A stretch of DNA of 64,000 nt from Eledone cirrhosa (taxonomy: Eukaryota). A program made the position numbers and the translations under genes. Where the stretch lies: positions 182,838,001 to 182,902,000 of the forward strand of contig OZ024741.1 of NCBI GenBank assembly GCA_964016885.1. The letters are read 5' to 3'. Position 1 is the stretch's first letter. Every line of letters starts with the position of its first letter. The notes beneath the pieces were generated by a model. The model worked only from the letters and a program-made list of their open reading frames with translations. It was not told where the DNA came from and ran no database searches. This document shows, in pieces, positions 8,937 through 33,926 of this stretch.

Positions 8937-9043
8937 CTGAAGAAGTGACAACTGATTATACATTTGCTATCGAATACTTGCTAACATTATATGATTACGC
9001 AAGCAGCGATACATAGGTATTCCGTCTGTTACAGAAACATGTC
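8937..9043 (+). ncRNA. Hammerhead-like motif in the PLE pLTR (helix I not evident)
   Basis: CUGAAGA, then GUGACA/UGUUAC closing an ~90-nt hairpin, then GAAA-CAU-GUC (GAAACAUAUGUC in the inverted copy). Confidence 0.5.
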
Positions 9044-9487
9044 AATACCTAATAAATTCCTTTTTTTTAAAAAAAGCACTTTCATTTTATATTCATCTTT
9101 TCTACATTTTCTCCGGAATATAATTTATACTCGTTGAGCAAACCTACACGTACGCTGTTCATCTCTAACGTAACAATATATTATCACTACATTATTGATA
9201 ACCTGAATTTTTATATATATATATAATATTATTTTACTGGTTTCTGTCATTTGACTTAGGCTATGCTGAAGGGTTTTAGTTGATCATATCAACCCCAATA
9301 CTTTTTTTTTTCAAGTTTGGTACTTATTTTATCAAACTCAACTGAGCTGCTGCATTACAAACAGCAACGTTTCCATCAGTCAAATTTCACAGTGGTGCTA
9401 TACAGTCAAGCAGAATTTAAAAAAATTTTTGACTGTGAAGCAAAATTCTTAGCCAAACCAAACACATGCATAAATATATCAACTTAC

Positions 9488-9597
9488 CAGTCTTTGCTCT
9501 TTTCAGCAACACTTCAACATTATGGGCACGCCCTGCCTGAGCAGCAAAATGGATGGCACACATGCCAGAGCTGTCCAATTCTAATGGATTACAACCT
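9488..9597 (-). CDS. Tankyrase-like gene, visible exon 13 (GCNPLELDSSGMCAIHFAAQAGRAHNVEVLLKRAKT)
   Basis: tttag/gtaagt splice sites, phase 2->1, ankyrin repeat. Confidence 0.9.
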
Positions 9598-10162
9598 CTA
9601 AAAAACAACAGAAAATTATATCAAATGAGGCAAAGTGACAGAAGAATTTGAATTAAAGGTGTAGAAAGTTTATTTTCTTGCTCTTCTTTGTTATAGGCTA
9701 GTCAATAGGGTACACCTATGATCATTGCATTTTTTCGAAGCATGGTGTATTTTGGCAAAAATTATCCAATGCGTTTTTTTTTTTAAAGCAGTATTATGTA
9801 ATTTGAAGGTAATTGCAATAATTGAAGTCTCGTCTGCTAGGTGACATTCATGAAACTTGTATTACTTTATTAAGCTCATTAATTAATAATATTTTAACCA
9901 ATTAAATCATACAAACCACTCTTTTAAGTAATATTGGAAATACAGAATAAATAGAAGTGAAGGGTACTTCAAAGGATGTTTAAATAGTTAGAAGGCAATG
10001 GTAAGTAAAATAGGGAGAAAATACCATAAAATAATGAATCTCACTGGGGTTAACTTTGGGGACTGATAAAATAATGTACCAGTTTAACACCACCTCTTGG
10101 GCCTTTCGTGCCTTTGTGAAGTCCACTCTGTTACAAGTGTTCTGGCCAGGATTCTGGTTTAA

Positions 10163-10365
10163 TCCTTTAGCATTTAAACTGTAGTATTCAGCCAGAATTC
10201 TCTCACCCCTCCCTGTTAAAACCGGCTGTAACTGGCTACTCATACTTATATTAAGGTATTGTTTTCTAAATAAATATCAAAATCTCAGATTCAATATTTT
10301 GTGAAATAAAGCCTTTTACCGTGAAAATACAATAGTATATATAGAGTAATATAAATGCTAAAGGG
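10163..10365. mobile_element. piggyBac-type MITE family 1, complete
   Basis: TTAA on both sides. Ends TCCTTTAGCATTTA / TAAATGCTAAAGGG match the TIRs of the autonomous element. Confidence 0.9.
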
Positions 10366-10990
10366 TTAAGGATGCCTTCTCTTTTTTCCAATCAGCCACA
10401 AAGGCCCTGAAAAGGGTTCCTCCTGACTAAGTGATAAAATAAAAAAAAAATGGATGATTTAGGCAGAAAAAAAGACAGCTAAAATAATGACAATTGAAAG
10501 TCGATATAGAAAAATAAACCATATGATGAAAGACAGCCTGAAAACTATCGATATATAAATAATGAAAATTTTGAAACTCTCATTACAGAGATTCTTTTTT
10601 CTTTTTAATTTTAAAATACTTTTTATATCAATAACCTCAAACTAGAAACAAGCCTAAATAAAATTAGGGACAACCTTAAATATGTCAGAGATTACTGTAA
10701 ATGAACCTTTATTATTTCAATTCTCTTCTTTTTCAAATCCCAACAAGATTAGCTTTGCTTTTCATCCTTACAGGATTGATAAAATAAAGCACCAGTAATG
10801 TACTGGAGTCAATTTAATCGACTTTCACCTGCCCCCAAATTGTTGGCCTTGTGCCTATAATTATTTAAATTCTCTTCAATCAGAGTTGAGCTGGGAGCTA
10901 AACAGCAACAATAACAATTAAGTTTCCTTGGGTAAAGGTAAACACTCAAGTACATTTAAAGAACACAAAAGCACAAAGTAAAAGCCTTAC

Positions 10991-11154
10991 TTCCCCAAAA
11001 GGAATTCAAGTGTTGCAGTGGACGTGCAAGCAGCTGCATAATGTACTGGCCGGCGTTGCCATTTGTCAACAACATTGAACTCTGGTTGAACATTTATTAA
11101 TGTTTGCAGGTATTTTACATTAGGATTTATAGCAGCACAATGGATTGGGGTGAT
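10991..11154 (-). CDS. Tankyrase-like gene, visible exon 12 (ITPIHCAAINPNVKYLQTLINVQPEFNVVDKWQRRPVHYAAACTSTATLEFLLG)
   Basis: tttcag/gtaagg splice sites, phase 0->2, two ankyrin repeats. I recall TPIHCAAINPN as typical of PME-5/TANK-1-like PARPs. Confidence 0.9.
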
Positions 11155-11929
11155 CTGAAATGAGAAATTTAAAACACAATCACATCATTATCAACTTCAT
11201 CATCATTTCTTTTTAAATTCCACTTTCCATGCTGCATAGTCTAAATAGGTCATCAGTCTGAGTCAGTTCATATATGGAGTTACTATCCTACTAGAGAGGT
11301 CAGAAAACAATGTCATACACACACATTCCATTTTTGTTATGGGTTCTCAGCTAGATACACGCCCTAACATTAACCTTTTAACAGAGTGCATTGGGTACAC
11401 CTTTTTGTGGCACTAGCACTAAAGATGTTGTTATGTCCTTAGAAGGACTTTTTAGCAGTATGTTTGAGATTTGTGGAGACAAACAAAGAAACCAGGAGTC
11501 ATAGGCTGCTGCCATAAGAAGTAGTATATATTTTGTTTTCTATTTTCAGACTAAAGATCATGTGCGAAGGAAGTACTCTCAAAACAGAGACCTCATTTAA
11601 ATGCTTGCACCAAACTCAGAGGTCAAGTTGTGGTGTTAAACTGATGATGGATTAAATTTAACATGCAAAACCAGGCTCAGTATATCTTCACAAGGTACTA
11701 AATGCTACACAGTGAGAGAGAAACCCTATGTCTTTAAAATATGAATTTCAAGGGCAGTATTATTGGAAAGGAGGAGGAGGGGGAATCAACTCTGATGTAG
11801 AATTGGTACTGATTTCATCAAACCTAAAAGGATAAAAATCGAGGGGAATTCTGACAAACCATAAGAATATAAAAGTAAATACTAAAAGGTGACATTTGTG
11901 ATTTGACATATGAAGAGCAGTGGAGTAAG

Positions 11930-12101
11930 TACCGTATTTCCTGGTGTAGAAGATGCTACTTTTTTCCTAAAATAAGTTTCAAAAATCTACCATGCATCCT
12001 GGAGGCTGATGGTTGTTTACTATTTTTTTTTTTTATTTTTGGTTGTCAAAATTAGGGTGCGTCCTTGAGGACGAAGAGTCTTCGGTCCCAGGAAATACTT
12101 A
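11930..12101. mobile_element. Short pogo/Tigger-type MITE remnant
   Basis: TACCGTATTTCCTGG ... CCAGGAAATACTTA inverted ends. Confidence 0.5.
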
Positions 12102-12654
12102 AAAACAAGAGTTGGCATCAGGGAACAAACCCAGGCAGCCATAGAATACTGCCTCAAAATTTTATTCAACTCATAACTGAATGAAAAAGGTATATATAAA
12201 AATGATGATGATGAAAACATTGATGATCTACTGCTTCTGTCACTCTAATCAATTAACTCTTAATGCTCTGTACCATATGAAACTGCATTAGAAAAACATT
12301 TGTGCAGTACATTAACATTCCTGGCCAATGGTAAAGATACTATAAATATTTGAATTAACAAGCCTGTTTTTAGATATTTGCTAATTCATTGTAGGATATT
12401 AAGAGTTTAAAATCCCAACACAGCCATATACCCTTTCATGACATTCGTAAATTTATATAAGTTTGGAGAGAAGAGAGTTTTTACGTTTTAAATTAAACAC
12501 TTTGTCTGAATAGAAAAAGCATTTTCTATTTTAGATTAATGGTTTAGCCCACAATATTCAAGTTTTTCTTTCTCTTTCTATGGCATACAAACATCACTAA
12601 ATAATTTTTGCTGAAGCAAACCACCACTAGTATCTCCAGATTCTGTTTATTTAA

Positions 12655-13076
12655 CCCTTAGCATTTAAACTGGTCATATACGGCCATAATTCTCTCGCCA
12701 CTTTCTGTTCAAACTGGTTATAACCAGCCCCTCATACTGACGTTAAGGTATTGTTCTCAAAGTAACTAACATCAAAATCTCATAGATTCGATATCATCTC
12801 AAACAATTTTATGTTCTACTTTGATAAAAAAAACAGCGATGATCAACTACAAAGTATTAAAAAAACTGGCGTATGGGTGATGCCAGATGCTCTATAACAT
12901 GTGTGGGGAGGGGAGACAGGAGTTTCCGACCACAACTTGCTCCAAATTTGTATTGATGTAAAAGTAATAAAATAAAATCTGAAGTTTGCTCTCATTAACA
13001 TCATTTTCAAATTGCCTCCCTGTGCACCCCACCCCTATGGTAATCACTGATATAGAGTAATGTAAATGTTAATGGG
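12655..13076. mobile_element. piggyBac-type MITE family 1 with an ~250-bp foreign insert
   Basis: TTAACCCTTAGCATTTAAAC start and TATAGAGTAATGTAAATGTTAATGGG end. Unrelated sequence at about 12796-13050. Confidence 0.75.
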
Positions 13077-13109
13077 TTCACAAACAGGTTGATGCATTCA
13101 ACTAGTATG

Positions 13110-13315
13110 TCTTAAAATGTTATATCCTTGGTATAGTAGGGTGGGGGTGGGGATAAGATCAAGGTAGCACCTAATATGACTGCCTTAAAATGTTATATCC
13201 TGAACACTGTAGGGTGAGAGTTGGGATATGGTTCAAGGCAGTAACTAATTTAGACTATCTCAAAATGTTATATATTCCTGCCACTAGAGGCAGAGAAAGA
13301 CCTAGGTAGTGGCTA
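13110..13315. repeat. Degenerate ~75-bp tandem repeat, about 3 copies
   Basis: Recurrent CTTAAAATGTTATATCCT...TAGGGT...AAGGTAG units near 13111, 13184 and 13259. Confidence 0.6.
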
Positions 13316-13385
13316 GCAGATTTTTTTTTATTATTATAATGATGTTTGCTTGAAAATACAAAATAAATATAGAAAATAGACTTAC

Positions 13386-13463
13386 TTTGGAATAAAATGG
13401 CTTTTTTGTAACAGAAGCAGGTAAAATGCTAGTTCTCAGATCTTCTTTCTCAAAAAGCAACAC
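13386..13463 (-). CDS. Tankyrase-like gene, visible exon 11 (VLLFEKEDLRTSILPASVTKKPFYSK)
   Basis: tttcaag/gtaagt splice sites, 78 nt, phase 0->0. Confidence 0.85.
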
Positions 13464-15179
13464 CTTGAAAGAAAAATGATATATATATATATTGAGAGAG
13501 AAAATTATTGAGAAAGAAAATTATACATATTTCTATCAAAAGTAAAAACAAAAAAAAGATTAAAGACAGATTTTGGTTTGTTTAACATAATAAAGATATA
13601 TACTGGGTGTGAAAGAGAAATTAACTTATAGATAACCCCAATGGTGGGAAATAAACAGAGTCATTAGAGCACTGACTAAATGAGTCATGGAATTTGTTCT
13701 GGTTCTCTGCATTCTTAGTTTAAATTCCACCATGATCAACTTGAACAAAAGGATCAAGAGGGCTCTTCAGCCACATAAAGGACTGTCATAACAAAATGCA
13801 CCCAGTACATTCTGCTAAGTGGTTGATATTAGGAAGGGCATCCAATAGTAAACACTGTCAAAAGGATTGAGAGAGTTCTTCAGCCACATCAAAGACATGA
13901 CAATTTCCTTAGTGTTGGAGCCATGATAAAATGTACCCAGTAGACCTTGCAATGCAATTAGCGTTAGGAAAAGCATCCAGCCATAGAGACTGTGCCAAAA
14001 ATTGAACATATTGCAGCTCCTATCATCCATTATAGTCACGTGCATGCACACACACACACACATTTATGAAGACAGTCTCTTTGATTAAGTACTGATTTGG
14101 TCTGTAATGATCAGTTTAAACCCTGCCAGCAGGGAAAAACAGGGGGTGCCAGTGACAACGGGTGGTGATGATAATAATGATGATACTACAATATTACATC
14201 AATTTTTCCATGTGTGGAAAGGTGAGATGGTTTACTTATTGGATCAGACATGCCCACCTTCCACCCTGTTCTTATTGTTTGTAACTCAACCATGAAGTAA
14301 GGAGTGGTGCGTTGTTTTTAATTCTTCAATTAGTTAGGTTGGAGCAAGCAAATTTAAAAGCTTGGGTGCTTTACTCAAAGCCACAGTGCAATGCATCATT
14401 ATGCATTGCATTGTGGCTTTGAGTAAAGTCAAATCTGAACTAAGTGATACATAGTTCAACATCTAAACCTCATAGCCACTGAGAAAAACATTTAATTATT
14501 AAATAGCCCAGCACTCCTAAATATAAATAGGTACAATCCTGCTATGGTGTACTTGAGTTGTAGACTTAATTCATCACACTGTTTAATACCACAACATGGT
14601 TCTTAGGTGCCATAATAGTGTTCAATCTGTTGCAAGCTTTCAGGTCATGTCTCCGGTTTGGGGGACACCTTCTTTCCCCCCCCCCCCCCTCTTTCCCTCC
14701 AATCTGAAAACTACCCTCCTTCTGTGACTAACATCATCATCGTTTGGACAGTTCTTTTTTTGAGGTAATGTTTTATAAGCAGATACCCTTCTTTATACCA
14801 ACCCTTTAATCCCTTTTCATGACACTCAGTGATATGGAGCATCTATTCTAAACTGAATACATATGGTTAACAGTTGAAACAAAAATTAAATGTGAAAAAA
14901 TATATACCAAATTGACAGAGTAAAGTATAGTTACATTAGCAACATTTTAAATGTAGGGAGATAGCTAATTGGAGATAAGTATACAGTGAAAGGAAAAAAC
15001 AATATTAGTCATGAAATAATATTATTTTGAATTTCTTTCAGCACTGTAAAGATATTTTAGTCTTATTAAGCATAGACTTTAATGCTTTTAATGGATTAAA
15101 TACAGCTTGTAATGAGCCCTCTTATTGGCCATGTGGTAAAATAAACGTAAAAAATAACAATAACAAATATCATTATTAC

Positions 15180-15302
15180 CTCTTTATGAAGATAATTGTA
15201 GCCATGACCACCAGCTTTCTCTGCTTCCTCAATCAATCTACCAGATAATTTACGGTGACCTCTAATGATGGCTTGATGAATGAATTGATAAACTGTGGCA
15301 AT
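15180..15302 (-). CDS. Tankyrase-like gene, visible exon 10 (IATVYQFIHQAIIRGHRKLSGRLIEEAEKAGGHGYNYLHKE)
   Basis: ccttccag/gtaata splice sites, 123 nt, phase 0->0. GHRKL and GYNYLH motifs. Confidence 0.88.
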
Positions 15303-15772
15303 CTGGAAGGACAATAAAATTAAAATGAAACATCACACAATCTCTTCAGCAGAGAATCCCAGTATACATTTCCTAATATAAAAAGACTTCAATTGGTTTT
15401 GATGATGTGTGTTCCAGTTATTCAGTTAACAGAACAACTTATTTGTTAAATTAACATATGTGACTCTGTATTCCAAGGACACATATACATTTGCTAAGTT
15501 AAAAAGACCTCCATCGATTTCAACAACATATGTGTTCCAATTCTTCAGTCACTAGAACAACCTATTTATTAAATTAACATAAGTGGCTGAATAACCCACA
15601 ACACATTTACCCTTAATATTCAGGCATTTTACAAAATGTTGTGACAAGGCCAACCCTTTGAATTTCACTTGCAAAGTGAATGACACTTACCCAAGATGCC
15701 ATGTAATGAGAAACCAGAGTGAATTGCTTAATCACTTGGTTATGCTGCATTCATCTTGCTTAGTAAGTTTAA

Positions 15773-16964
15773 CCCTTTAGCATTTAAACTAGCTATATCC
15801 GGCCAGAATTCTCTAACCTCTTTCTGTTCAAACCGGCCGTAACTGGCCACTCATGCTGATGTTAAGGTATTGTTCTCAAAATAAATATCAAAATCTCATA
15901 GATTCGATATTATCTCTATATATATATATAAAACAGAGGATATGTGTCTGTGTAAATTCCTAAAACTCGAGAAGTACCCGACCGATTTTTTTCAAACTTT
16001 AATGTTACTTATATTTCTTGAAGTGTAATGGACTAAAAACTAACTTTTTCTGCCCTAGGGCCCTCATTAAACGAAAAACCGCATTTTTTAGGCACTTTTA
16101 GGCTTTTTTTAAAGGCGTAACTTAAAGATAATCCAGCCGATTTCCTCAAAATTTGCAGCACACATTAGTTAGTCCCCTCCCTCGCATTGCTGTGGACAAA
16201 AAAATTTCCGATTCCATTAATGGTTTCTAGAAAATTTACGAATTAGCATTGGGCATTACATGCCATTTTCATTTTCAATATGAACGCTACTTAAACATCG
16301 TAAGTAGCGTATAATATTTCGTTAAAAATTTGGTTTATTTAACAGAGGACACAACACTTACTTTTAAGCAGGACCATTTTCGGGGGATTGAGGAAGTGAG
16401 GACCTTAAAATTTTTGTTGGCGCCCTGTTGACGCTTCGTGCTTTCATCATGCGCAAATCCGGGCCCTGTGTCTTATTGACACCATAAAACTCACATCTGT
16501 GCTACTTCTACTAAGACCCCTTTTGTTGCACTACACCGCAATATGAACGCCCTGTGCAAGTACGCCGAACAGCGGTTGTGCTAATTCCGTGGTGACCCCT
16601 TTTGTCGCATCTTTGTTGCTGTGTAAACGCAGTGCAACCAGTGCCGCCCAGCGTTTGTGCTAATTGCACTATGACCCCCTTCTGCTGCAGCTGCGTTGCC
16701 ACGCTGATTTGGTCATCTCAATATCCCCACTTAAACGTACATCCCTACTTGGTTTTCACACAATTGACTACATCGCTCCTCAATCATTCCCTGAGAATAA
16801 GGGAATTCAAAAAGTACACAGCTACATCCCTCAATCTTTGCATATGCGTGTAGCTATTTCACGTTTCCTACCCCATGCAACGCCAGGTCCTGCTTCTTGT
16901 GTAAGATAAAGCCTTTACCACAAAAATACAATAGTATATATAGAGTAATGTAAATGCTAAAGGG
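15773..16964. mobile_element. piggyBac-type MITE family 1, complete but split by a Helitron
   Basis: TTAA-CCCTTTAGCATTTA ... TAAATGCTAAAGGG-TTAA. The halves rejoin as GATTCGATATTA|TGTAAGATAAAGCC. Confidence 0.9.
15913..16899 (+). mobile_element. Non-autonomous Helitron
   Basis: 5' TC. 3' CCCCATGCAACGCCAGG degenerate hairpin followed by CTTG (a CTAG variant). Inserted between A and T with no TSD. Confidence 0.8.
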
Positions 16965-18087: not shown

Positions 18088-18213
18088 ATGCTCATCTCTA
18101 GTGTCATTCTGGTCAGTGTCAAACAAAATTTCCAGAATCTCTTTACTGGCTCCAATTGTCACGGCATATTCAAAGTAAGTTCTAGAGCTGTATATCACGT
18201 TATTCTTGACATC
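18088..18213 (-). CDS. Tankyrase-like gene, visible exon 9 (DVKNNVIYSSRTYFEYAVTIGASKEILEILFDTDQNDTRDEH)
   Basis: ttttcag acceptor, weaker gtaaat donor, 126 nt, phase 0->0. Confidence 0.75.
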
Positions 18214-18285
18214 CTGAAAAATGCAAATAAAATAACATCTCTGAAATAACCTACAATAACATTTCACTATATATACATATATGGG

Positions 18286-18322
<37 letters not shown>

Positions 18323-19566
18323 CATGAGTACACAGCAACACACACCTGGTAATAATAGTAGGTGGAACATGGGTACATAGCAACACATACCAGCAATGGT
18401 AGTGGGTGGAGCATGAGTACACAGCAACACATACAGGCAATAGTGATGGGAGGGGCTTGGGTACATAGCAACACATACTGGCAATAGTGGTAGGAGGAGC
18501 TTTGGTACATAGCAACACATACTGGCAATAGTGGTGGGTGGAGCTTGGGTACATAGCAACACATACTGGCAATAGTGATGGGAGGGGCTTGGGTACATAG
18601 CAACACATATTGGCAATAGTGGTAGGAGGAGCTTTGGTACATAGCAACACATACTGGCAATAGTGGTAGGAGGAGCTTTGGTACATAGCAACACATACTG
18701 GCAATAGTGATGGGAGGGGCTTGGGTACATAGCAACACATACTGGCAATAGTGGTAGGAGGAGCTTTGGTACATAGCAACACATACTGGCAATAGTGGTG
18801 GGTGGAGCTTGGGTACATAGCAACACATACTGGCAATAGTGGTAGGAGGAGCTTTGGTACATAGCAACACATACTGGCAATAGTGATGGGAGGGGCTTGG
18901 GTACATAGCAACACATACTGGCAATAGTGGTAGGAGGAGCTTTGGTACATAGCAACACATACTAGCAATAGTGATGGGAGGGGCTTGGGTACATAGCAAC
19001 ACATACTGGCAATAGTGGTAGGAGGAGCTTTGGTACATAGCAACACATACTGGCAATAGTGATGGGAGGGGCTTGGGTACATAGCAACACATACTGGCAA
19101 TAGTGGTAGGAGGAGCTTTGGTACATAGCAACACATACTGGCAATAGTGATGGGAGGGGCTTGGGTACATAGCAACACATACTGGCAATAGTGGTAGGAG
19201 GAGCTTTGGTACATAGCAACACATACTGGCAATAGTGGTGGGTGGAGCTTGGGTACATAGCAACATATACTGGCAATAGTGGTAGGAGGAGCTTTGGTAC
19301 ATAGCAACACATACTGGCAATAGTGGTGGGTGGAGCTTGGGTACATAGCAACATATACTGGCAATAGTGGTAGGAGGAGCTTTGGTACATAGCAACACAT
19401 ACTGGCAATAGTGGTAGGAGGGGCTTGGGTACATAGCAACACATACTGGCAATAGTGATGGGAGGGGCTTGCATACATAGCAACACATACAGGCAATAAT
19501 GATGGGAGGGGCTTGGGTACATAGCAACACATACTGGCAATAGTGGTGGGTGGAGCATGAGTACAG
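18323..19566. repeat. 44-bp minisatellite, about 28 units, three interspersed variants
   Basis: Unit GTACATAGCAACACATACTGGCAATAGT followed by GGTAGGAGGAGCTTTG, GATGGGAGGGGCTTGG or GGTGGGTGGAGCTTGG. Period 44 (18461, 18505, 18549...). Confidence 0.97.
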
Positions 19567-20101
19567 AGCTATATGCACTGGTAATAAAGCTGAGTGGAGC
19601 AACACATGCCAAGTAATGCAATAAATATGTCTATCTAGTTTAGCTGTACATTGCCCCATGTTTCTGTTCCTTCTGTCCTTGTTACTGTTCTTCACATTGA
19701 TACATATCATATGGACCTTTGTTAACTTCAACTATTATTGTTCCAGCTGTTCAATCAATGGAACTGCCTGCTTGTGAAATTAATCTGTAAGTGGCTGAAT
19801 ATTCTACAGACATGTGTACCCTTAAGGTAATTCTTAGAGAGATTTATAAGTGGCAGCATGACATGGCTGGCCTTTTGAATTACAGGTACAGTCTATCCAA
19901 TGAACTTCCAAATAGTTTCCCTGTACCTAATTTCACTCACATGGCATGGGTCAACCTGAGGCCATGGTAAATGACATTTGCCCAAGATGCCACACAGAGA
20001 GATCAAACACAGAGCCTACTGAATTTGGCCATTCACAATACATATACGAAAATTACAAAATATCCATCACGTCATTAATTTTATAGATCATTTGGAAATA
20101 C

Positions 20102-21783: not shown

Positions 21784-22423
21784 CTGAACAAAGAGAGAAA
21801 GAAAATTATTTACTAAGTATAATTCCTATTAAAACAACTTTATAAATACATACAATTACAACATAAAAACTAAACATTTTTGTTAAAGTCTTATAGAGAT
21901 TTATAATTTTGCAACTCTATTTATCTGCAATTTAGAGATAAAGGGCAAAGGCTTGACAGAATAATTAGGATGTCAGATAAAATCTTTCATCATTTGGGTA
22001 AAATAGAGTACAAATCAAATACTGAGATAGCTATATCAAACATTTCCTTTTTTCTCAAATTTGAAGTCATCTACATTAAATACCAGTTTGATCTCTTATC
22101 ATCAGCAGGCATCTTATTCCTAGATATGTACATGATAAAGATAAAAGGCTCTTAAAACCTGGTGGAGTCATAGAGGCGTTGTTCTGACACAGTGTGCTTT
22201 GGGTAGTTTAATCCTGCCAGGGCTCATCCCTCTCCAGGTTGGAACTCAGCTGGTTTCTGAGAAAGGGAGGTGGGGGAGAGAGAGAGCTCATTGAATCGGA
22301 GCCAGAAAGAAAGTGGAAAAAATCAAACCCCAATAATAGAAAGGTTGACCTCAGTAGGATTTGAACTCAGAGAGTGGTGATGAACAAAAATATACGTAGA
22401 ATGATATATATATATATATATAC

Positions 22424-23537
22424 ACAGGTCGGTGTCCACCAGGGCTCTGTTCTTAACCCTCCTGTTCGTTATAGTTTTGCAGGCAATAATGGAGGAGTTT
22501 AAGACCGGATGCCCATGGGAACTCCTGTATGCGGATGATCTCGCACTTATAGCTGAATCCATAGTGGAACTAGAGAAGAAATTCCAAACATGGAAGCAGG
22601 GACTAAAAAGAAAGGGTCTCAAAGTCAACCTGACAAAGACTAAGGTTCTTGTAAGTAGACGAGATAACAGAACCCAGATTCCCTCAGGGAAATGGCCTTG
22701 CTCAGTATGTAGGAAAGGTGTAGATAGGAACTCCATCCTCTGCCCCAAATGCAAACAATGGGTACACAAGAGATGTAGTGGGATCTCAGGAAGCTTAACT
22801 AAGAATGTAGGCTTCATATGTAGCAGCTGCACTGGGACAGCAAGCAGCAAACAGCCACAGGAAACAAGTACCACCAAACTCTGGGAGGGCTCTGTAGAAA
22901 CAGTAGACAGCTTCTGCTACCTAGGTGACCGAATTAGCAGCGGAGGTGGGTGTTTGGAAAGTACAATAACTAGGGTAAGAACGGGATGGAAGAAGTTCAG
23001 GGAGCTACTGCCACTGCTAGCTGCAAAAGGCTTTTCCCTCAAAATGAAAGGCAGACTGTATGATGCGTGTATATGAACAGCATTGTTACATGGTAGTGAG
23101 ACCTGGACGCTGTCTGTGGAAGACTTGTGCAGATTAGAAAGAAACGAAGCTTGCATGCTCCGATGGATGTGTAATAGTAATATACGCGAATGGCAAAGTA
23201 TAAACAAACTGAGAGAGATTGAGCATAAGAGGAATCAAATGATGTGTGCAGGAGAGGAGGTTACGTTGGTATGGACATGTGATGCGTATGAAGGATGACA
23301 GCTGCATAAAAAGGTGCAGAGCACTAGAAGTCGATGGAAGCCACGGAGTGGGGAGACCCAAGAAAACCTGGGATGGGGTGATAAAGGCTGACCTTACCCA
23401 ATTGCACCTCTCAAGGGCAATGACATGTGACCGTGACCTCTGGCGTCATGCAGTAATACAGAAGACCCGACCCCCCTCGGGAACAAGCCGAGGCTGAAGC
23501 ATATACACAATATGCCGGTGATGATGATGATGATGAT
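22424..23537 (+). mobile_element. RTE-clade LINE, subfamily A, 5'-truncated and disabled
   Basis: YADD, PHD-like finger, YLG, RLRWYGHV motifs. Premature TGA at 23074 and a frameshift near 23220. (GAT)n tail. Confidence 0.9.
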
Positions 23538-24041: not shown

Positions 24042-24059
24042 TGTAACGATTCCGTGCTT

Positions 24060-24860: not shown

Positions 24861-24960
24861 ACCATACTTGAGAGATTTGAGCAGAGTCATGTCATTCAAT
24901 AAGACAGCTCGGATGGCTAACTTCCCGTTTGTATGGGAAGAGATGAAAGGCACAGTTTCA
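24861..24960 (-). CDS. Tankyrase-like gene, visible exon 6 (ETVPFISSHTNGKLAIRAVLLNDMTLLKSLKYG)
   Basis: ttttcag/gtaagt splice sites, phase 2->0. Confidence 0.85.
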
Positions 24961-25707: not shown

Positions 25708-25738
<31 letters not shown>

Positions 25739-25982
25739 CATATAATATATACACAAAAAGAGAGAAAGAGAAAGGGGGATGTAGATAGAGATAGATAGGG
25801 TGGCATATACTAGCCTTAGTTAAACATCAATTTAGAAAACATAAATTAGTTATAAATTACAAACACTAAAATGAGTAAATAATTCAATTACTAATTACAA
25901 TTTCATTTCTACATTTTTTCAAGAACAAGAACGCTTTTATGGTCAACAATTGATGACTAAATTTTCTGACAATTATACTTTT

Positions 25983-26012
<30 letters not shown>

Positions 26013-26020
<8 letters not shown>

Positions 26021-26542
26021 ATACTTGGGGAGGGTCAAAATTAATAACAGAACACACTCACTGTTTGGTTGGTTTTTGCTTCTGTATCTTTTATCTTTTA
26101 TATCAATTAATTCATTCGGTCCTCAATGTTTACCATTGACTGACCAACGGTCAAAAATACAGATATAATATAGATATAAACACATATATATAGTCTAACA
26201 AAGTTCTTTCGTGAGTGGTGCTATTATGTTCCTCCTGTTGTATTGTATATTTACGCCATCTTACAAATATACAATACAACAGGAGGAACATAATAGCACC
26301 ATTCACAATGTTGCAGATGTGCAACGAAAGAACTTTGTTAGACTATATATATGTGTTTATATCTATATTATATGTGTATTTTTTACCCTTGGTCAGTCAA
26401 TGGTAAACATAAGACCGAATGAATTAACTGATATAAAAGATAAAAGATACAGAAGCGAAACCAACCAAACAGTGAGTATGTTCTGTTATTAATTCTGGCA
26501 ATATTATTACAACAATATGACCCTCCCCAAGTATAACAATAT
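26013..26542. repeat. ~530-bp fold-back palindrome between (TA)n tracts
   Basis: ATATTGTTATACTTGGGGAGGGTCA ... TGACCCTCCCCAAGTATAACAATAT. Arms about 240 bp, loop about 11 nt near 26258, two short insertions in the right arm. Confidence 0.95.
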
Positions 26543-26580
26543 TTGTTTCAACACACGATTTCATATCAAAACCCTGGCAA

Positions 26581-26612
<32 letters not shown>

Positions 26613-26962
26613 CATTAGATATACCATACCCATATTCCTTCATTACTCCTCGACTACGTAGTTGAGGTTGGCACCACAAATTCAGGGATATATGTGGATA
26701 TATTCATGTATATGTATGTGTTCGCATGTATCTGTGTATATATATATATATATATATATAAGCAAATTAAAAGGCCATATACAGTTCCTATTTCTAGCGG
26801 TATTATCGTCCACCTTGTGGATATCTATTCGCCATAGGTTTAACATCATTTAACCATGTGTTTTTCAACATAGTGGTCGCATTGGACTTAGTTGTGGATA
26901 TTCCCAGGTATATTGATTTATTTACAATCTTCATTCTATATTTCCCTTAGAATGGTGAGATT

Positions 26963-27145
26963 AAACCTCTGAAGAGTACCTGAGTCTCACATGGTTTAAT
27001 CATAATCGATAGTTTTGTCTTCGATGATCGAATATATTGATTGATATTATTTTTTTCCCCCTTTCTTTCGATGATCAATTACATTCGATTACATTGATTG
27101 ATTTTTAGCTATACGCTCCAGGCATGAAATAGCGCTATAAGGTTT
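26963..27145 (+). ncRNA. Type I hammerhead ribozyme with ~150-nt helix II
   Basis: Helix I AAACCU/AGGUUU; CUGAAGA; helix II base GUACCUG/CAGGCAU; GAAA; palindromic helix III AUAGCGCUAU; cleavage triplet AUA. Confidence 0.8.
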
Positions 27146-27360
27146 CACTTACGATTCCATCTGTGTACATATTCTTCTATAGAATATGTACTTGGTATAC
27201 ATACAATATACTGTGTTTCTTTTACGATATATGGCCCTTTATCTATATATAAACATATATCTTTTAATTTGGTTATTATGGCTCTAGATAAAGTCTATTG
27301 AGCTTACTTATTGAGAAACACAAAATTCTAAACATATTTGATATGTTTTGGTTCCTCATT

Positions 27361-27400
<40 letters not shown>

Positions 27401-27408
<8 letters not shown>

Positions 27409-27536
27409 TAACAGATTAAAGTTTAAGCAAAGAATCGTTGCTTTCACCCTTAACGGGATCTTCTGAAACTTCAGAAGATCCCGTTAAGGGTGAAAGCAGC
27501 AGTTCTTTGCTTAAACTTTAATCTGTTACTTTAATA
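27401..27536. repeat. Fold-back inverted repeat carrying a degenerate hammerhead core (PLE pLTR remnant)
   Basis: Arms about 66 bp. Each contains CAGAAGA-UCCCGUUAAGGGU-GAAA (CUGA changed to CAGA). Flanked by (TA)n. Confidence 0.8.
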
Positions 27537-27652
27537 AATATTTGCTCTACGGTTCTTATATATTTGATATATATGTATCCTTATCGAGCCCTCTTTGGAT
27601 TTTAGTCTTCAAATTTATTATTATTACTATATATATATATATATACGTATAT

Positions 27653-27799
27653 ATATGCATACTTAAATTTATGTATCAGCTGTGCTAGGGTGAGAAATAA
27701 AATTCTAATTTTATATATAATATATATATATATATATATAAAATTAGAATTTTATTTCTCACCCTAGCACAGCTGATACATAAATTTAAGTATGCATAT
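27653..27799. repeat. Perfect palindrome with (TA)n centre
   Basis: ATATGCATACTTAAATTTATGTATCAGCTGTGCTAGGGTGAGAAATAAAATTCTAATTTTATATATA and its reverse complement. Confidence 0.95.
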
Positions 27800-27959
27800 G
27801 TACACACATATATATATATATATACACACACACATACATATATATGTATGGGTTATATCGAACATTAGTAACAATATTCGATTCGTTTGCAAACAAACGG
27901 CCCAAGTAGAGCTGTGCTGTGCTGATATGTGTGTGTATGCATACTTACACACACACACA

Positions 27960-28552
27960 TCATCATCATCATCATCAACGTTTAACGTCCGTGTTCCACG
28001 CTTGCATGGGTTTGGACGGGGGTTTTCCCACTTGAGGCAAGAGTGATTATCTTGCTCGCATGGGACTGTCTGGCGGGTTTTCTACAGCTGGATGCCCTTC
28101 CTAACACCAACCACATTTACAGTGTGGGGCTGGGAGGTTTTTACCGGGTTGCCTACACGGCCACATTACAGCGTGGACTGTGTGTTTTTTGTCGTGACAC
28201 CTACACGATCTCATTTGTTTCGGGCTGGATGTTGTGGTACCAACATAACTTTACATTGAAAGGGGCGGTGTGGATGGGGTGGGGGTGGTGGGACAGGGGT
28301 GTATTTTGTTAGAGATGCCTACTGACTGTAGTAGGTTTTACTTTGTATTTAGGTAAGGCGGGTCTTCTCTATTACTGAGTACCGCCAAAGGTCTCGGTCC
28401 AGTGACATTGTATTGGAGAGGTGTAAGTGTGTGAGGTCGGAATTCATCAGCTCGTCCCAGGTTTTTCTGGGTCTGCTACTCCGTGGCTACCGTCTATCTT
28501 TATTGCCCTGCACTTTGTTATACAGCTATCGTCTTTCATGCGCATCACGTGA
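27960..28552 (-). mobile_element. RTE LINE subfamily B 3' end
   Basis: Nearly identical to 31490-32058. (CAT)n tail at the left end. Confidence 0.85.
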
Positions 28553-28611
28553 AAAATTTTTTTCCAATTCCAACCCGCCCATCTCCTCAATCTATATTAT
28601 TTCTCATTCTT

Positions 28612-28647
28612 TCTTCTGATGAAGGACTAGCGTCCGAAACGTTAAGA
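28612..28647 (+). ncRNA. Minimal type I hammerhead ribozyme (Penelope type)
   Basis: UCUU-CUGAUGA-A-GGAC(UAGC)GUCC-GAAA-C-GUU-AAGA with palindromic AACGUU helix III. Sits in an ~180-bp fragment ending in (TA)n. Confidence 0.85.
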
Positions 28648-28727
28648 CCCTCTTACTGCTATATCAAGCGTTAACCTAATATATACCTTCCATATACTGT
28701 ACCGATTGTATTGTTATTTCTGTTTAC

Positions 28728-28773
<46 letters not shown>

Positions 28774-29169
28774 CAGAGCGTCCCCAAAAATTGTATACAC
28801 ACTTTGATTAACTGAATAGACAATATTTATTAGAATGCTGTTAAAGTGTGTATACACATGGACTTATAACAAGATTGAGAGGGTTTTATGGGTGACATAG
28901 TGACATATTTTAGCCATTCTGGACCTAGCAAAGCCCATTATCGCTCCAGGTCTGAACACAGCTGATTTCTTCTCAAGAAGAGGAGAGAAATTGATAGAGA
29001 GGAAGTGAGAAAGAGAAAGAGAGGAAGAATTGACTCCAGTGGTGGACTGGTAGATTTTTATCAACCTGAAAAGCTTGAAAGGCAAAGTTGACTTCGAAAG
29101 GATTTGAACTCATTGTGCAGAGAATTGGACCTGATAATGCAAAGTGTTCTATCTGACATTCTAAGATGG

Positions 29170-29224
<55 letters not shown>

Positions 29225-29225
<1 letters not shown>

Positions 29226-31415
29226 ATATAGAGGAACAGTGGGAATTCATGAAATCTAACCTGCTGAAGGCGACAGATGAAATCTGTGGCTGGAGCAGAC
29301 CTATAGGCAGGAGGAGAGTAACTTGGTGGTGGAACAGTAAGGTGGAGGAGTCGATCAAGGCCAAAAGGCAGGCTTGGAAAGTATGGCGGGATGGGGGAAG
29401 TAGAGAAGACTATCAAGTGGCCAGGAGGGAAGCTAGGAGACAAGTGTACTTCACAAGAAGGGAAGCAGAGGAAAGAAAGTTCAAGCATGTTCTACAACGC
29501 GAGGACCAAAATTGTGAGGTGTTCAGGATTGCTAGACAATGTGTCAAGGAGAACCGTGATATTGTCGGGGAGAAGTGTGTCCGTAATGATGATGGTGTAC
29601 TGGCTATCACTGACGCTGATAAAAAGGTAGCTTGGAAGTGTCACTACGAAAGGCTACTAAATGAGGAGAATAAATGGGAGAAAGAAAACCTCCCCCCACA
29701 TCGATCCAATAGAGGGACCAGCAGTGCAAGTTGAAGGTAGTATAATAAGTAAGGCAATCAAAGATATGAAGACGGGCAAGGCGGCTGGGCCTTCAGAAAT
29801 AGTTGCTGAAATGCTGAAAGCATCTGGAACGGAGGGACACACTAAGGTCACCCGGATAGTAAACCAAGTTATACAGAAGGGGGTCGTACCAAAGGACTGG
29901 CATAGCAGCATCATCATAAACTGCTACAAGAGTAAAGGAGACGCCCTAGATAGGGGAAACTATAGAGGCATTAAATTAATTGACCAGGTCATGAAGGTCA
30001 CAGAAAAAGTAATAGCGCAACTAATCAGAGAGCGAATTGATCTAGATGAAATGCAGTTCGGGTTTGTGTCAGGTAAAAGTACCACAGACGCTCTTTTCAT
30101 TGTACGACAACTACAGGAGAAGTACCTAGCTAAAAGTAAACCCCTCTACTTAGCTTTTGTAGACCTGGAGAAAGCCTTTGACAGAGTCCTTCGCTCCATT
30201 ATCTGGTGGGCTCTTAGAAAACTAGGTGTGAGAGCTATACAAGCCATGTATAAAGAAACAGTCAGCAAGGTTAGAATTAACAACGAATATAGTGAAGAAT
30301 TTAGCGTAAAAGTTGGTGTTCATCAGGGCTCTGTCCTTAGCCCACTCCTATTTATTATTGCCCTTCAGGCTATAACAGAGGAGTTGAAGACCGGCTGCCC
30401 ATGGGAACTTCTATACACAGATGATCTAACGCTCGTAGCTGAATCAATGGCTGAACTAGAGAAGAAATTCCAAACATGGAAGCATGGCCTAGAATCAAAA
30501 GGCCTTAAAGTTAACTTGTCTAAGACTAAAGTCCTAATATGTAGGAAGGAGAATAAGGCACTGGTCCCATCTGGGAAATGGCCATGCTCAGTGTGTAGGA
30601 AAGGAGTAGGCAGAAACTCCATTTTATGTCCTAAATGCAAAGTATGGGTGCATAAAAGATGTAATGGGATCACAGGTAAGCTAACTAAGAATATAGATTG
30701 TATATGTGGCCGGTGCTCAGGTGCAATAAGTAGCAGCAAGTGCCCACAAATACTAGCTCATTCCATTGCACAGATGGTTCTATAGAAATAGTGGACACCT
30801 TCCGTTACTAGGGTGACAAAATCAGCAGTGGTGGAGAGTGCTCTGAAAGTACAGTAGCTACAGTCAGAACTGGATGGAAAAAGTTCAGAGAGCTTATACC
30901 ACTATTGGCCGCTAAAGGTTTCCCTCTAAAAATGAAAGGCAGGCTGTATGATGCTTGCATACGAACAGCGATGTTACATGACAGTGAGACATGGGCCTTG
31001 GGAGCAGAGGATCTAAGCAGACTGGAGAGGAACGAAGCTTGCATGCTCCGTTGGATGTGTAATAGTAATATATGCAAACGGCAAAGCATAAATGAACTAA
31101 GTGAGAAATTAGGAATAAGAGGGATCAGATGCTGTTTACTTGAGAGAAGACTACATTGGTATGGTTACGTGATGCGCATGAAAGATGACAGCTGTATGAA
31201 AAAGTGCAGGGTGATCAAAATAGACGGTAACTACGGAGTAGGCAGACCCAGAAAAACCTGGGACGACTTGATAAAATCCAACCTCACACACTTACACCTC
31301 TCCAAGACAATGTCACTGGACCGAGATCTACGCTGAAATACAGAAGACCCGCCTTGCCTAAGTACAAAGCGAAACCTACAGTCAGTAGGCACTTTAACCA
31401 AAATACACCCCCTGT
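29225..31415 (+). mobile_element. RTE LINE subfamily B, 5'-truncated, frameshifted
   Basis: TWWWN, NYRGI, QFGF, FVDLEKAFD, HQGSVLSP, YTDD, PHD-like finger. Split over ORFs 29249, 29661 and 30905. Confidence 0.92.
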
Positions 31416-31489
31416 CCACGCTGTAATGTGGATATGATCTGGCCGGGTGAGCCTCCAAGCTTGAGACTGACTTTAGATACATAGATACA

Positions 31490-32947
31490 TATCATCATTA
31501 TAGTTTAACGTCCATATTCCACACTTGCATGGGTTTGGACGGGAGTTTTCCCACTTAAGGCAAGATTGGTTGTCTTGCGGGTTTTCTATGGCTGGATGCT
31601 CTTCCTAACACCAACCACATTTACAGTGTGGAACTGGGAGGTTTTTACCGTGTTACCTACACGGCCACATTACAGCGTGGACTATGTGTTTTTTTGTCGT
31701 GACACCTACACAACCTCATTTGTTTCGGGCTGGATGTTGTGGTACCAACATAACTTTACATTGAAAGGGGTGGTGTGGATGGGGTGAGGGTAGTGGGACG
31801 GGGGTGTATTTTGTTAGAGGTGCCTACTGACTGTAGTAGGTTTCACTTTGTACTTAGGTAAGGCGGGTCTTCTCTATTGCTGTGTAGCGCCAAAGATCTA
31901 GGTCCAGTGACATCGTCTTGGAGAGGTGTAAGTGTGTGAGGTCGGAATTTATCAAGTCGTCCCAGGTTTTTATGGGTCTGCCTACTCCGTGGCTACCGTC
32001 TATTTTTATTGCCCTGCACTTTTTTATACAGCTGTCGTCTTTCATGCGCATCACGTGACCATACCAATGTAGCCTTCTCTCGAGTAAACAACATCTGATC
32101 CCTCTTAATTTCTAATTTTTCCCTTAGTTCGTTTATGCTTTGCCGTTCACGTATATTACTATTACACATCCAGCGGAACATGCAAGCTTCGTTCCTCTCC
32201 AGTCTGCGTATATCCTCTGCACACAATGCCCAGGTCTCACTGCCATGCAACATTGCTGTTCGTATGCAGGCATCATACAGCCTGCCTTTCATTTTTAGGG
32301 AGAACCCTTTAGCGGCTAATAGTGGTATAAGCTCTCTGAACTTTTTCCATCCAGTTCTGACTCTAGCTACTGTACTTTCAGAGCACCCTCCCCCACTGCT
32401 GATTTTGTCACCCAGGTAACGAAAGCTGTCCACTATTTCTATAGAACCATCTGTGCAATGGAATGAGCTAGTATTTTGTGGGCACTTGCTGCTACTTATT
32501 GCACCAGAGCACCGGCCACATCTAAAATCTATGTTCTTAGTTAGCTTACTTGTGATCCTACTACATCTTTTATGCACCCATACTTTGCATTTAGGACATA
32601 AAATGGAGTTTCTGCCTACTCCTTTCCTACACACTGAGCATGGCCATTTCCCGGATGGGACCGGCACCCTATTTTCCTTCCTACAAACTAGAACTTTAGT
32701 CTTAGACAGGTTAATTTTAAGGCCTTTTGATGCTAGGCCATTCTTCCATGTTTGGAATTTCTTCTCTAGTTCGGCCATTGATTCAGCTATGAGCGTTAGA
32801 TCATCTGCGTATAGGAGTTCCCATGGGCAGCCGGTCTTGAACTCCACTGTTATAGCCTGAAGGGCAATAATAAATAGTAGGGGGCTAAGAACGGAGCCCT
32901 GATGAACACCAACTTTTACACTAAACTCTTCACTATATTCGTTGTTA
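31490..32947 (-). mobile_element. RTE LINE subfamily B, 5'-truncated
   Basis: ORF 31993-32985 (YADD, PHD-like finger), 3' UTR module and tail. Tail-to-tail with the 29225 copy. Confidence 0.92.
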
Positions 32948-32975
32948 AATATATATATATATATATATATAAAAT

Positions 32976-33315
32976 GGAGGCACATGGCTTAGTAAGAGCA
33001 TTGGCCTTGCAATCGAAAGGTTGTGAGTTCAACTCTCAGACCGGGTGATGTGTTGTTTCCTTGAGCAAGACACTTTATTTCACATTGCTCCAGTTTACTC
33101 AGCTGTAGAAACGAGATGATAGGGACTGGGGTCATATCATTCCACTGCAAAGTGGTCGTGGAGGTGCTACGGCAAAAAACCACCCAGCACTCACTGTAAA
33201 TGAGGTTGGTGTTAGGAAGGGCATCCAGCTGTAGAAATCAAGCCAGAATCAGTTCCCGTCCCACCCTTGCAAGCAGGGAAAAAGCAGACATTAAATGAAA
33301 TGATGATGATGATGA
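32976..33315 (+). mobile_element. Full-length tRNA-head SINE with an RTE-C-derived tail
   Basis: A-box-like TGGCTTAGT, B-box GAGTTCAACTC, CCTTGAGCAAGACACT block, AGGAAGGGCATCCAGC module. Tail CCCGTCCCACCCTTGCAAGCAGGGAAAA matches the LINE end at 43380. Confidence 0.85.
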
Positions 33316-33393
33316 TAAATGAGCGGAACAAGTAAACATTAAACAATCTTTTAAATAAATTAAAATACGATTTAAATATTCATCTGTTCTATT

Positions 33394-33473
33394 GCTGTTA
33401 CCGATGGTTTCACTAATCAAAAGATTGGAAATTCAGAGAATTTCCAATGGAAAGAATTAGCTCTTCAGACAGC
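33394..33473 (-). ncRNA. Type I hammerhead ribozyme with 50-nt helix II
   Basis: Minus strand: GCUGU-CUGAAGA-GCUAAU..AUUGGAAAUUC(UCU)GAAUUUCCAAU..AUUAGU-GAAA-CC(AUC)GG-UA-ACAGC. All three helices and the core are intact, with a GUA cleavage site. Confidence 0.85.
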
Positions 33474-33846
33474 TATTTCCATACCATAGGGCATAAAGCC
33501 CCATAGTTTGTAAATATAATGCTTCCTGCCTGATGCATGAGGTCAGGCCGTTAAAGTGACCTACACATAACTAGGCCCGAAGTAAAAGTGGGATATTATA
33601 GACTCGTTGATACTTCATGCCGCTAAAAAAATAGCAGCACGATACAACATTTCGTTTACATAGAAGGAGAATACATATAAAATGATATAAATATTCCAGC
33701 AGGTACTAAGTACCTACGGAAATATATCCCACTTTTACTTACAGCCTGTTTATGTGTAGGTCACTTTAACGGCCTGACCTCATGCATCAGGCAGGAAGCG
33801 ATATATTTACAAACTATGGAGCTTTATGTCCTATGGTAAGGAAATA

Positions 33847-33926
33847 GCTGCCTGAAAAGCTAATTCTTTTCATTGAAAATTCTCTGAATTTCCAATCTTT
33901 TGATTAGTGAAACCGTCGGTAACAGC
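33847..33926 (+). ncRNA. Mutated hammerhead copy (CUGAAAA core, likely inactive)
   Basis: Inverted duplicate of 33394-33473 with G8 changed to A and a helix I mismatch. Confidence 0.65.

What the first reader, a model, noticed from the sequence alone, without database searches (positions are those of the whole stretch)
8937..33926. Series of hammerhead ribozymes with expanded helix II in (TA)n-associated, often fold-back retroelement ends
Seen: four apparently unrelated sequences share CUGANGA...GAAA...UH with helix II of 13 nt (28612), 50 nt (33394), 90 nt (8937) and 150 nt (26963), plus degenerate copies at 27472 and 33847. All lie in segments abutting (TA)n, and several sit in inverted repeats. 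Known: Penelope-like pLTRs and retrozymes carry minimal type I hammerheads, usually with short helix II and palindromic helix III. Inference: a long-helix-II class that size-limited motif searches would miss. It marks a possibly undescribed set of ribozyme-bearing non-autonomous retroelements, with the long arm available as cargo or a protein or ADAR platform.
Basis: partly seen in the sequence, partly recalled or inferred. Interest (0 to 1): 0.8.

Follow-up and report, generated by a model that had tools for sequence, protein, structure and literature searches.

The report
Long-armed hammerhead ribozymes in Penelope-like retrotransposons
The ends of jumping genes in this animal genome carry hammerhead motifs, predicted to be self-cutting RNAs, whose side arm is 50-150 bases long instead of the usual 13-26, a form likely present in tens of thousands of copies and too long for the published search pattern.

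Summary
Partly confirmed. Three of the four motifs are complete type I hammerheads: 26969 (helix II 150 nt), 33468 (minus strand, 50 nt) and 28616 (13 nt, an ordinary minimal one). The fourth (8937, with a second copy at 6688) has the core, a 90-nt helix II and helix III but no helix I in any of 40 held copies.

The carriers are not one class. 8937 ends an autonomous Hydra-clade Penelope-like element, and 28616 ends a Neptune-type one. Only 26969 and 33468 sit in ORF-less tandem units (about 610 and 470 nt), which are retrozyme-like.

The long-arm form is real genome-wide: 10 hits with helix II over 40 nt in 1.2 Mb of sampled DNA against 0.1 in shuffles, about 25,000 copies by extrapolation. 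It shows compensatory changes within families. In six families a 5-8-nt segment just upstream of helix I is complementary to an internal loop of helix II. This is likely the usual helix I-II contact, made as a pseudoknot, with the long arm appended.

Cleavage, expression and any cargo or ADAR role are untested. Verdict: a new structural variant of a known system.

The parts
6521..6717 (-). Family A: inverted, 5'-truncated copy of the element's 3' end, with a hammerhead-like motif (core 6688-6682, helix II 90 nt, no helix I); follows (TA)10 at 6501-6520
   Evidence: (I15)
6724..8458 (+). Family A: 5'-truncated ORF of a Hydra-clade Penelope-like element (RT, then GIY-YIG endonuclease), with one in-frame stop at 7622-7624
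   Evidence: clade motifs
8459..9211 (+). Family A: 3' UTR / pseudo-LTR ending in a tail of about 110 nt and (TA)7
8937..9043 (+). Family A hammerhead-like motif: core 8937-8943, helix II domain 8944-9033, GAAA 9034-9037, palindromic helix III (2 nt shorter than in sister copies), would-be cleavage site after 9043; helix I absent
26761..27362 (+). Family B: ORF-less unit (monomer about 605-630 nt, head-to-tail junctions in other copies) between (TA)n runs
26955..27145 (+). Family B type I hammerhead: helix I 26963-26968 with 27140-27145, core 26969-26975, helix II domain 26976-27125, GAAA 27126-27129, palindromic helix III, predicted cleavage after 27139; proposed pseudoknot 26955-26962 with 26983-26990
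27403..27627 (.). Family E: separate fold-back element with a broken hammerhead-like core at about 27472; not a copy of families A-D
28557..28731 (+). Family D: 5'-truncated 3' end of a Neptune-type Penelope-like element, followed by (TA)19
28612..28647 (+). Family D: ordinary minimal type I hammerhead (helix II 13 nt, 2-nt palindromic helix III)
   Evidence: fits the descriptor and consensus
33317..33726 (-). Family C: ORF-less unit (monomer about 470 nt), intact arm of a fold-back insertion
   Evidence: (I9)
33394..33482 (-). Family C type I hammerhead: helix I 33473-33469 with 33398-33394, core 33468-33462, helix II domain 33461-33412, GAAA 33411-33408, predicted cleavage after 33399; proposed pseudoknot 33482-33476 with 33453-33447
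33724..34112 (+). Family C: second arm of the fold-back, with a degenerate hammerhead (core at 33851, G8 changed), a tail of about 105 nt and (TA)6

Best explanation
These are type I hammerhead motifs at the 3' ends of Penelope-like retrotransposons and of their ORF-less tandem derivatives, and several families carry a helix II lengthened to 50-150 nt that is predicted to leave the catalytic core able to cut, likely because the helix I-II contact is made through an internal loop near the core. Shown: the cores, the three helices, the carriers (Hydra-clade and Neptune-type ORFs, or ORF-less tandem units), (TA)n insertion, high copy numbers and compensatory changes. Inferred: a tandem transcript is cut at each hammerhead, probably helped by dimer formation through the palindromic helix III, into unit-length RNAs that may circularise. 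A Hydra-clade RT/endonuclease likely copies these RNAs into (TA)n, giving 5'-truncated, tandem and fold-back insertions that end at one of two fixed sites about 50-80 and 160-190 nt past the cleavage site. The distal arm is likely a tolerated, folded add-on. The 8937 family has lost helix I and is predicted not to cut, yet it amplified recently, so cutting is likely not required for insertion.
For: Window scan: 3 hits against 0.1 shuffled. Sample of 120 x 10 kb: 85 hits, 10 with helix II over 40 nt, against 0.1 shuffled in all. Compensatory change in a 50-nt family: 8 of 27 pairs changed on both sides, one pair in all four Watson-Crick forms, 0 of 500 shuffles reached the covariation score. 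A and its relative A2 are 48% identical in the 90-nt domain, yet 4 of the first 6 pairs are compensated. Between C and C2, helix I and the base of helix II change but stay paired. In B, the free core position N7 is split 15 A to 15 T. Flank-loop complementarity of 5 bp or more in 7 of 9 families against 9 of 72 swapped pairs, with compensatory changes in G and M/M2. Hydra motifs in A. Head-to-tail junctions in 18 of 55 C hits. Shared two-site 3' ends in A and C. Insertion in vitro without ribozyme activity in another PLE.
Against: No cleavage or expression data exist for any of these sequences. For the window's B and C copies the unconstrained fold is 4-6 kcal/mol more stable than the cleavage-compatible fold, and it uses the same flank-loop pairing to sequester the core (pseudoknots are not modelled). 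B folds no better than shuffles (z -1.2). The pseudoknot windows were chosen after seeing five of the families; only 1 of 3 later-found families (N, not O or P) shows 6 bp there, and K, H and A2 lack it at that register. 9 of 30 B copies and 5 of 30 C copies have damaged cores, and 5 B copies share a U4 change. The link from B and C to a Hydra-clade enzyme rests on shared ends and targets, not on sequence homology.
Confidence: 0.72

Rival explanations
1. The flank-loop complementarity is an off-switch, not a tertiary contact. It forms an early hairpin over the core during transcription and delays or blocks cutting until protein binding or a second copy arrives, with the long arm slowing folding further.
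For: The minimum-energy folds of the window's B copy and of C, M and J use this pairing and hide the core. A PLE hammerhead needed its protein to cleave in vitro.
Against: The pairing starts at a fixed distance from the core (6-10 nt before it, 7-9 nt into helix II). This matches the geometry of described pseudoknotted hammerheads (5-bp and 6-bp stems), and an off-switch would not need that register.
Confidence: 0.25
2. The long-arm motifs are mostly dead relics. Short inverted and direct duplications made by the element's reverse transcriptase lengthened helix II and produced the complementarities, and the RNAs spread without cutting.
For: Family A lacks helix I in 0-of-40 fashion yet its 40 scored copies are 96-100% alike. 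Family E is abundant with a broken core. The arms hold internal repeats. Ribozyme mutants still insert in vitro.
Against: Core, helix III and cleavage triplet stay intact while surrounding pairs are repeatedly compensated, in several unrelated families. This needs selection on the RNA fold.
Confidence: 0.12
3. The arm is a selected functional domain: a binding site for the RT/endonuclease, an ADAR substrate, or a carrier of a 5' splice site that makes splicing and cutting exclusive.
For: Arm length is held at exactly 90 nt between A and A2. Full-length A copies have an acceptor-like stretch 31 nt before the start codon and a donor-like site in helix II. An intron overlaps the hammerhead in Drosophila virilis Penelope.
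Against: Donor-like sites beat shuffles in only 1 of 17 sequences tested. Arm sequences of different families do not align. No spliced junction was found among the held loci.
Confidence: 0.2

Closest known systems
Hydra-clade Penelope-like elements (Craig et al. 2021, PMC8557442)
   Same: C-terminal GIY-YIG, RWK, DKT, CxCX5C, CxxC and CxH motifs, no CCHH, (TA)n targets, and a type I hammerhead with palindromic helix III and often a mismatch at the base of helix II. One octopus family is listed there.
   Different: The listed Hydra hammerheads have helix II domains of about 25 nt or less; here they reach 36-116 nt in related or similar families. Family A has lost helix I.
Minimal PLE hammerheads (Cervera and de la Pena 2014, PMC4209133)
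   Same: 28616 fits the descriptor and consensus; dual copies on opposite strands were noted there too.
   Different: The descriptor caps stem II at 7 bp and loop 2 at 10 nt, so 38 of the 85 sampled hits, those with helix II over 26 nt, fall outside it on that count alone.
Non-LTR retrozymes of animals (PMC7229834; bioRxiv 10.64898/2026.07.22.740005)
   Same: ORF-less, low-GC, head-to-tail units with one type I hammerhead; proposed to derive from PLEs.
   Different: Monomers here are longer (about 470-990 nt against 170-400 nt RNAs), mostly dispersed as partial tandems and fold-backs in (TA)n, and carry a long helix II. Circular RNA is not shown here.
Pseudoknotted hammerheads (Perreault 2011, PMC3088659) and atypical type III hammerheads of HDV-like RNAs (PMC7936874)
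   Same: The helix I-II contact is made by Watson-Crick pairing; in the latter an internal loop plus an extra hairpin of about 20 nt extends one helix.
   Different: The arrangement here is the mirror image: type I, with the internal loop and extra domain (20-130 nt) on helix II, in animal retroelements.
PLE-X hammerheads of Selaginella (supplement of PMC8557442)
   Same: PLE hammerheads with a helix II region of about 47-52 nt, flagged as deviating from the canonical structure.
   Different: Two plant families without endonuclease; nothing of 90-150 nt and no pseudoknot described in that table.

Membership tests
Type I hammerhead ribozyme | CUGAnGA and GAAA core with an NUH cleavage triplet | tested here: met
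   All four window motifs; not met for 33851 and 27472
Type I hammerhead ribozyme | Helix I closing the core (26969, 28616, 33468) | tested here: met
   6, 4 and 5 bp; compensated between C and C2
Type I hammerhead ribozyme | Helix I closing the core (8937 and 6688) | tested here: not met
   0 of 40 held copies pair 3 bp; the relative A2 has 4 bp
Type I hammerhead ribozyme | Helix II and helix III supported by covariation | tested here: met
   weak within B, whose copies vary mostly at random
Type I hammerhead ribozyme | Helix I-II tertiary contact | tested here: inconclusive
   Complementarity at a fixed register in B, C, G, M, J, N; post hoc test p 7e-5; absent in others
Type I hammerhead ribozyme | Site-specific self-cleavage | not testable with these tools
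   Needs an in vitro assay
Rfam hammerhead families | Match to a curated covariance model | tested here: not met
   No hammerhead hit at E up to 10 in the window or in three short stretches, not even for the canonical 28616, so this says little about function
Hydra-clade PLE (family A) | Single ORF with RT and C-terminal GIY-YIG; RWK, DKT, CxCX5C, CxxC and CxH; no CCHH | tested here: met
   against the definition
Hydra-clade PLE (family A) | (TA)n insertion, pseudo-LTR tandem, inverted 5' copy, tail | tested here: met
Hydra-clade PLE (family A) | Placement in an RT phylogeny with reference clades | not tested
   Compared by eye with the published alignment rows only
Hydra-clade PLE (family A) | Canonical hammerhead in the pseudo-LTR | tested here: not met
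   Helix I missing
Neptune-type PLE (family D) | [quoted passage not shown] | tested here: met
   L098 and L107; the clade name rests on motifs and recall, with no tree
Non-LTR retrozyme (families B, C) | ORF-less head-to-tail unit with one type I hammerhead per unit, low GC | tested here: met
   Longest ATG ORF 37-47 aa and GC 31-32% in 3 units; junctions; no upstream PLE protein in 55 C hits and 11 B hits
Non-LTR retrozyme (families B, C) | Arrays of two or more complete units | tested here: inconclusive
   Only partial tandems were seen in the 3.2-kb loci; full arrays were seen for short-helix families (L190, L284, L290)
Non-LTR retrozyme (families B, C) | Expression as linear and circular monomer RNA | not testable with these tools
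   Needs RNA from this organism

The most novel reading that the evidence does not exclude
A distinct architecture of natural hammerhead: type I, with a Watson-Crick pseudoknot between the helix I flank and an internal loop of helix II, which frees helix II to carry a 20-130-nt extra domain. It would be active, present in some 25,000 copies in one animal genome, and would release 470-990-nt RNAs that Hydra-clade enzymes move into (TA)n. In some autonomous lineages the arm would tie cutting to splicing or protein binding, and family A would show a retrotransposon thriving after its ribozyme was disabled.
Probability: 0.35. Interest if true: 0.75.

Novelty: new variant of a known kind. Interest (0 to 1): 0.56.

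Why it matters
If active, size-capped searches have missed a large share of animal hammerheads: 38 of 85 sampled hits here exceed the published helix II limit. The families give natural, independent examples of how a ribozyme can carry a large insert next to its core, which is useful for engineering. They also offer a direct test of an open question, what PLE hammerheads are for. Two young sister families share a 90-nt arm, one with helix I (A2) and one without (A), and both have over a thousand candidate copies.

Tried and rejected
Rfam: no hammerhead family in 4 searches.

A parent ORF for B: the endonuclease remnant upstream in L054 is separated from B by a piece of another repeat, so it was not counted. 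An RT beside B in L051/L197 belongs to a different element with its own 3' end.

Rescue of helix I in family A: a type III or permuted reading was rejected by inspection because helix III would not pair; no common variant restoring helix I appeared among laid contigs.

Splice-site idea: donor-like motifs beat 300 shuffles in 1 of 17 sequences, and no spliced junction was found in the held loci. It is kept as speculation.

Pseudoknot in the 26-38-nt families: not above chance (p 0.58).

Expression: no RNA holder listed; the three runs are contigs of one study and say nothing on expression.

Pfam and NCBIfam gave no match above cut-off for the family A protein. Three look-ups of earlier findings returned nothing. 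One 126-nt hit of the first scan (L125+) was not recovered by the second scan and is treated as false. Lunse et al. 2017 and Arkhipova et al. 2017 could not be read; both used wider or relaxed searches and may bear on novelty.
Full report
Setting. The window lies in a 3.0-Gb, AT-rich animal genome full of (TA)n runs, LINE pieces and fold-back repeats. From its size and repeat landscape I take it to be a cephalopod; that is recall and inference, not a tool result. Family letters below are my own labels.

Checking the observation. My scan asked for CUGAnGA, a helix II domain up to 250 nt, GAAA, helix III, UH and a closing helix I. It found three motifs in the window: 26969 (B; helix I 6 bp, helix II domain 150 nt), 28616 (D; 13 nt) and 33468 on the minus strand (C; 50 nt). 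Sixty shuffles gave a mean of 0.1. The motif at 8937 (A) has the core, a 90-nt helix II and a palindromic helix III, but the bases before the core cannot pair with those after the cleavage triplet. This holds in every copy listed from the 30 loci and in 0 of 40 held copies counted later, some from overlapping loci. A second A copy lies inverted at 6688. 33847 is a damaged C copy. 27472 belongs to another family (E), in which 2 of 36 copies read CUGAAGA. Rfam has no hammerhead hit here.

What carries them. A ends an RT plus GIY-YIG reading frame at 6659-8458 with one stop. It has CxCX5C, CxxC and CxH and lacks CCHH. Longer copies add RWK and DKT and start with a tandem copy of the 3' end, as PLE pseudo-LTRs do. 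These are the defining marks of the Hydra clade. D is the truncated end of a longer element: L098 and L107 share about 1,450 nt or more upstream and encode an RT and a GIY-YIG domain with two internal cysteines, which I read as Neptune-type. B and C have no ORF over 47 aa in the three units tested and no PLE protein upstream in 11 and 55 scan hits. Their 3' tails run head-to-tail into their own 5' ends: 18 of 55 C hits, period mostly 467-474 nt. For B a tail motif lay upstream in 4 and downstream in 8 of 35 copies, giving about 605-630 nt. First-look candidate counts were 1359 (A), 417 (B), 1800 (C) and 1432 (D), with 40 scored each. A and C end at two fixed distances from the cleavage site, about 50 and 160 nt and about 80 and 180 nt, the tail pattern described for PLEs.

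How common is the long form. I scanned 120 stretches of 10 kb taken at round-number coordinates. There were 85 hits: 47 with helix II up to 26 nt, 38 longer, 10 over 40 nt and 5 over 80 nt; ten shuffles gave 0.1 in all. Twenty-eight hits come from tandem arrays of short-helix units. Simple extrapolation gives about 25,000 copies over 40 nt (Poisson range 12,000-46,000; clustering ignored). At least nine sequence clusters have 49-150 nt. Four further families that I searched for are young: A2, C2, M and J have 1106, 1270, 1960 and 2054 candidates with best copies 96-100% alike. Lengths form a continuum (13, 14, 26-38, 50-62, 90-150 nt), not a separate class. A2, a Hydra-clade relative of A (75% identical in RT), has an intact helix I and a 90-nt helix II, and 16 of its 26 hits lie downstream of PLE protein. 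So the long arm also occurs in autonomous elements.

Is the fold selected. In seven copies of a 50-nt family (G), 8 of 27 pairs changed on both sides and one helix II pair occurs as A-U, U-A, G-C and C-G. None of 500 shuffles reached the covariation score, and slid partners fell to 37-52% paired against 90%; helix I scored only 70% there, partly from alignment offsets. A and A2 are 48% identical across the arm, yet 4 of the first 6 pairs are compensated. C and C2 differ at helix I and at the base of helix II but stay paired. Against this, B copies vary largely at random, 9 of 30 have damaged cores, and the window's B stretch folds no better than shuffles (z -1.19); C does (z -2.79).

A likely tertiary contact. 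In B, C, G, M and J a 5-8-nt segment ending 6-10 nt before the core is complementary to helix II positions starting at +7 to +9, just past a 6-8-bp stem. Across nine families, 7 of 9 own pairs reach 5 bp against 9 of 72 swapped pairs (permutation p 7e-5). I chose the windows after seeing the data, so that p is optimistic, and two of the seven (I, K) pair at a different register. Among families found afterwards, N shows 6 bp at the same register, O and P do not, and M2 shows a compensatory change against M. The geometry matches described pseudoknotted hammerheads, in mirror image. The same pairing could instead form a hairpin that hides the core: unconstrained folds are 4.3 (window B), 6.0 (C) and 9.7 (M) kcal/mol below the cleavage-compatible folds, without pseudoknot energy.

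Mechanism. Shown: anatomy, carriers, targets, copy numbers and covariation. Inferred from known PLE and retrozyme biology: tandem transcripts are cut at each motif, palindromic helix III allows dimeric folding, unit RNAs may circularise, and a PLE enzyme copies them into (TA)n with truncation and inversion. That the enzyme for B and C is Hydra-clade is inferred from shared targets, helix III style and two-site ends. A is predicted to be inactive: it lacks helix I, and a rival hairpin covers the cleavage site. Its recent spread fits the report that ribozyme mutants still insert in vitro. I found no evidence for cargo or ADAR use of the arm.

Novelty. The published minimal descriptor allows stem II of 3-7 bp and loop 2 of 3-10 nt. 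The Hydra hammerheads listed by Craig et al. have about 25 nt or less, while two plant PLE-X families have about 47-52 nt. A 2026 paper-8 bp long. Nine paper searches listed no description of 90-150-nt helix II or of this pseudoknot in animal retroelements. Two relevant papers were not available, and the library lacks most subscription journals.

What I saw of each paper. PMC4209133: the main text through the start of Methods, passages, and all three parts of the supplement PDF. PMC8557442: passages, the Hydra section, supplement parts 1-2 and search hits in it. PMC11167929: parts 1-2 of 4. bioRxiv 10.64898/2026.07.22.740005: part 1 of 5 and passages, supplements unseen. PMC3088659, PMC6765202, PMC7229834, PMC7936874, PMC10085705 and PMC13725137: passages only.

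Verdict. Ribozyme-bearing PLE ends and retrozyme-like derivatives are known. The long, covarying helix II with a probable internal-loop pseudoknot, at this abundance, is a new variant worth a bench test. Interest 0.56.

Noticed in passing
window 1682-3367 (-): Open frame of 560 aa matching Pfam DDE_Tnp_1_7 and zf-Tnp_2: an apparently intact piggyBac-like transposase.
   Followed up: no
window 27403-27627 and about 30 other loci: Family E: very abundant (TA)n-ending element with a broken hammerhead-like core that follows an intron-acceptor-like stretch; many copies break or fold back exactly at the core. Splicing could in principle rebuild the core; untested.
   Followed up: partly
L345 and L347, 5' UTR of full-length family A: A donor-like site inside helix II (kept in A and A2) and an acceptor-like site 31 nt before the start codon could define a 213-nt intron removing half of the hammerhead; an 8-bp hairpin covers the donor in both families.
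   Followed up: partly
L190 (468-nt period, 19 hits); L284 and L290 (310-nt period): Classic tandem retrozyme-like arrays with 14-nt helix II hammerheads.
   Followed up: partly
L141, L081, L155, L282: Hammerheads with the U3-A8 core variant and helix II domains of 62-107 nt.
   Followed up: partly
window 29165-33000, 37155-43431, 61748-63616, 22323-23500: Several copies of a LINE whose RT is followed by a PHD finger, twice arranged as large inverted pairs (I1 and I2).
   Followed up: no
window 18200-19700 and 49627-50145: Tandem arrays with 44-nt and 173-nt units.
   Followed up: no
window 25990-26560, 27628-27824, 14367-14430: Further fold-back segments, the first two flanked by (TA)n, and a near-perfect 64-nt hairpin, without a hammerhead core.
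   Followed up: no
L205-L223: High-copy repeat (1761 candidates) ending in a hairpin plus CTAG, Helitron-like by recall; it abuts family B at about the same point in L037 and L054.
   Followed up: partly
window 46315-48060 (-): Short open frames that look like exons of a host gene; no NCBIfam match for the one tested.
   Followed up: no
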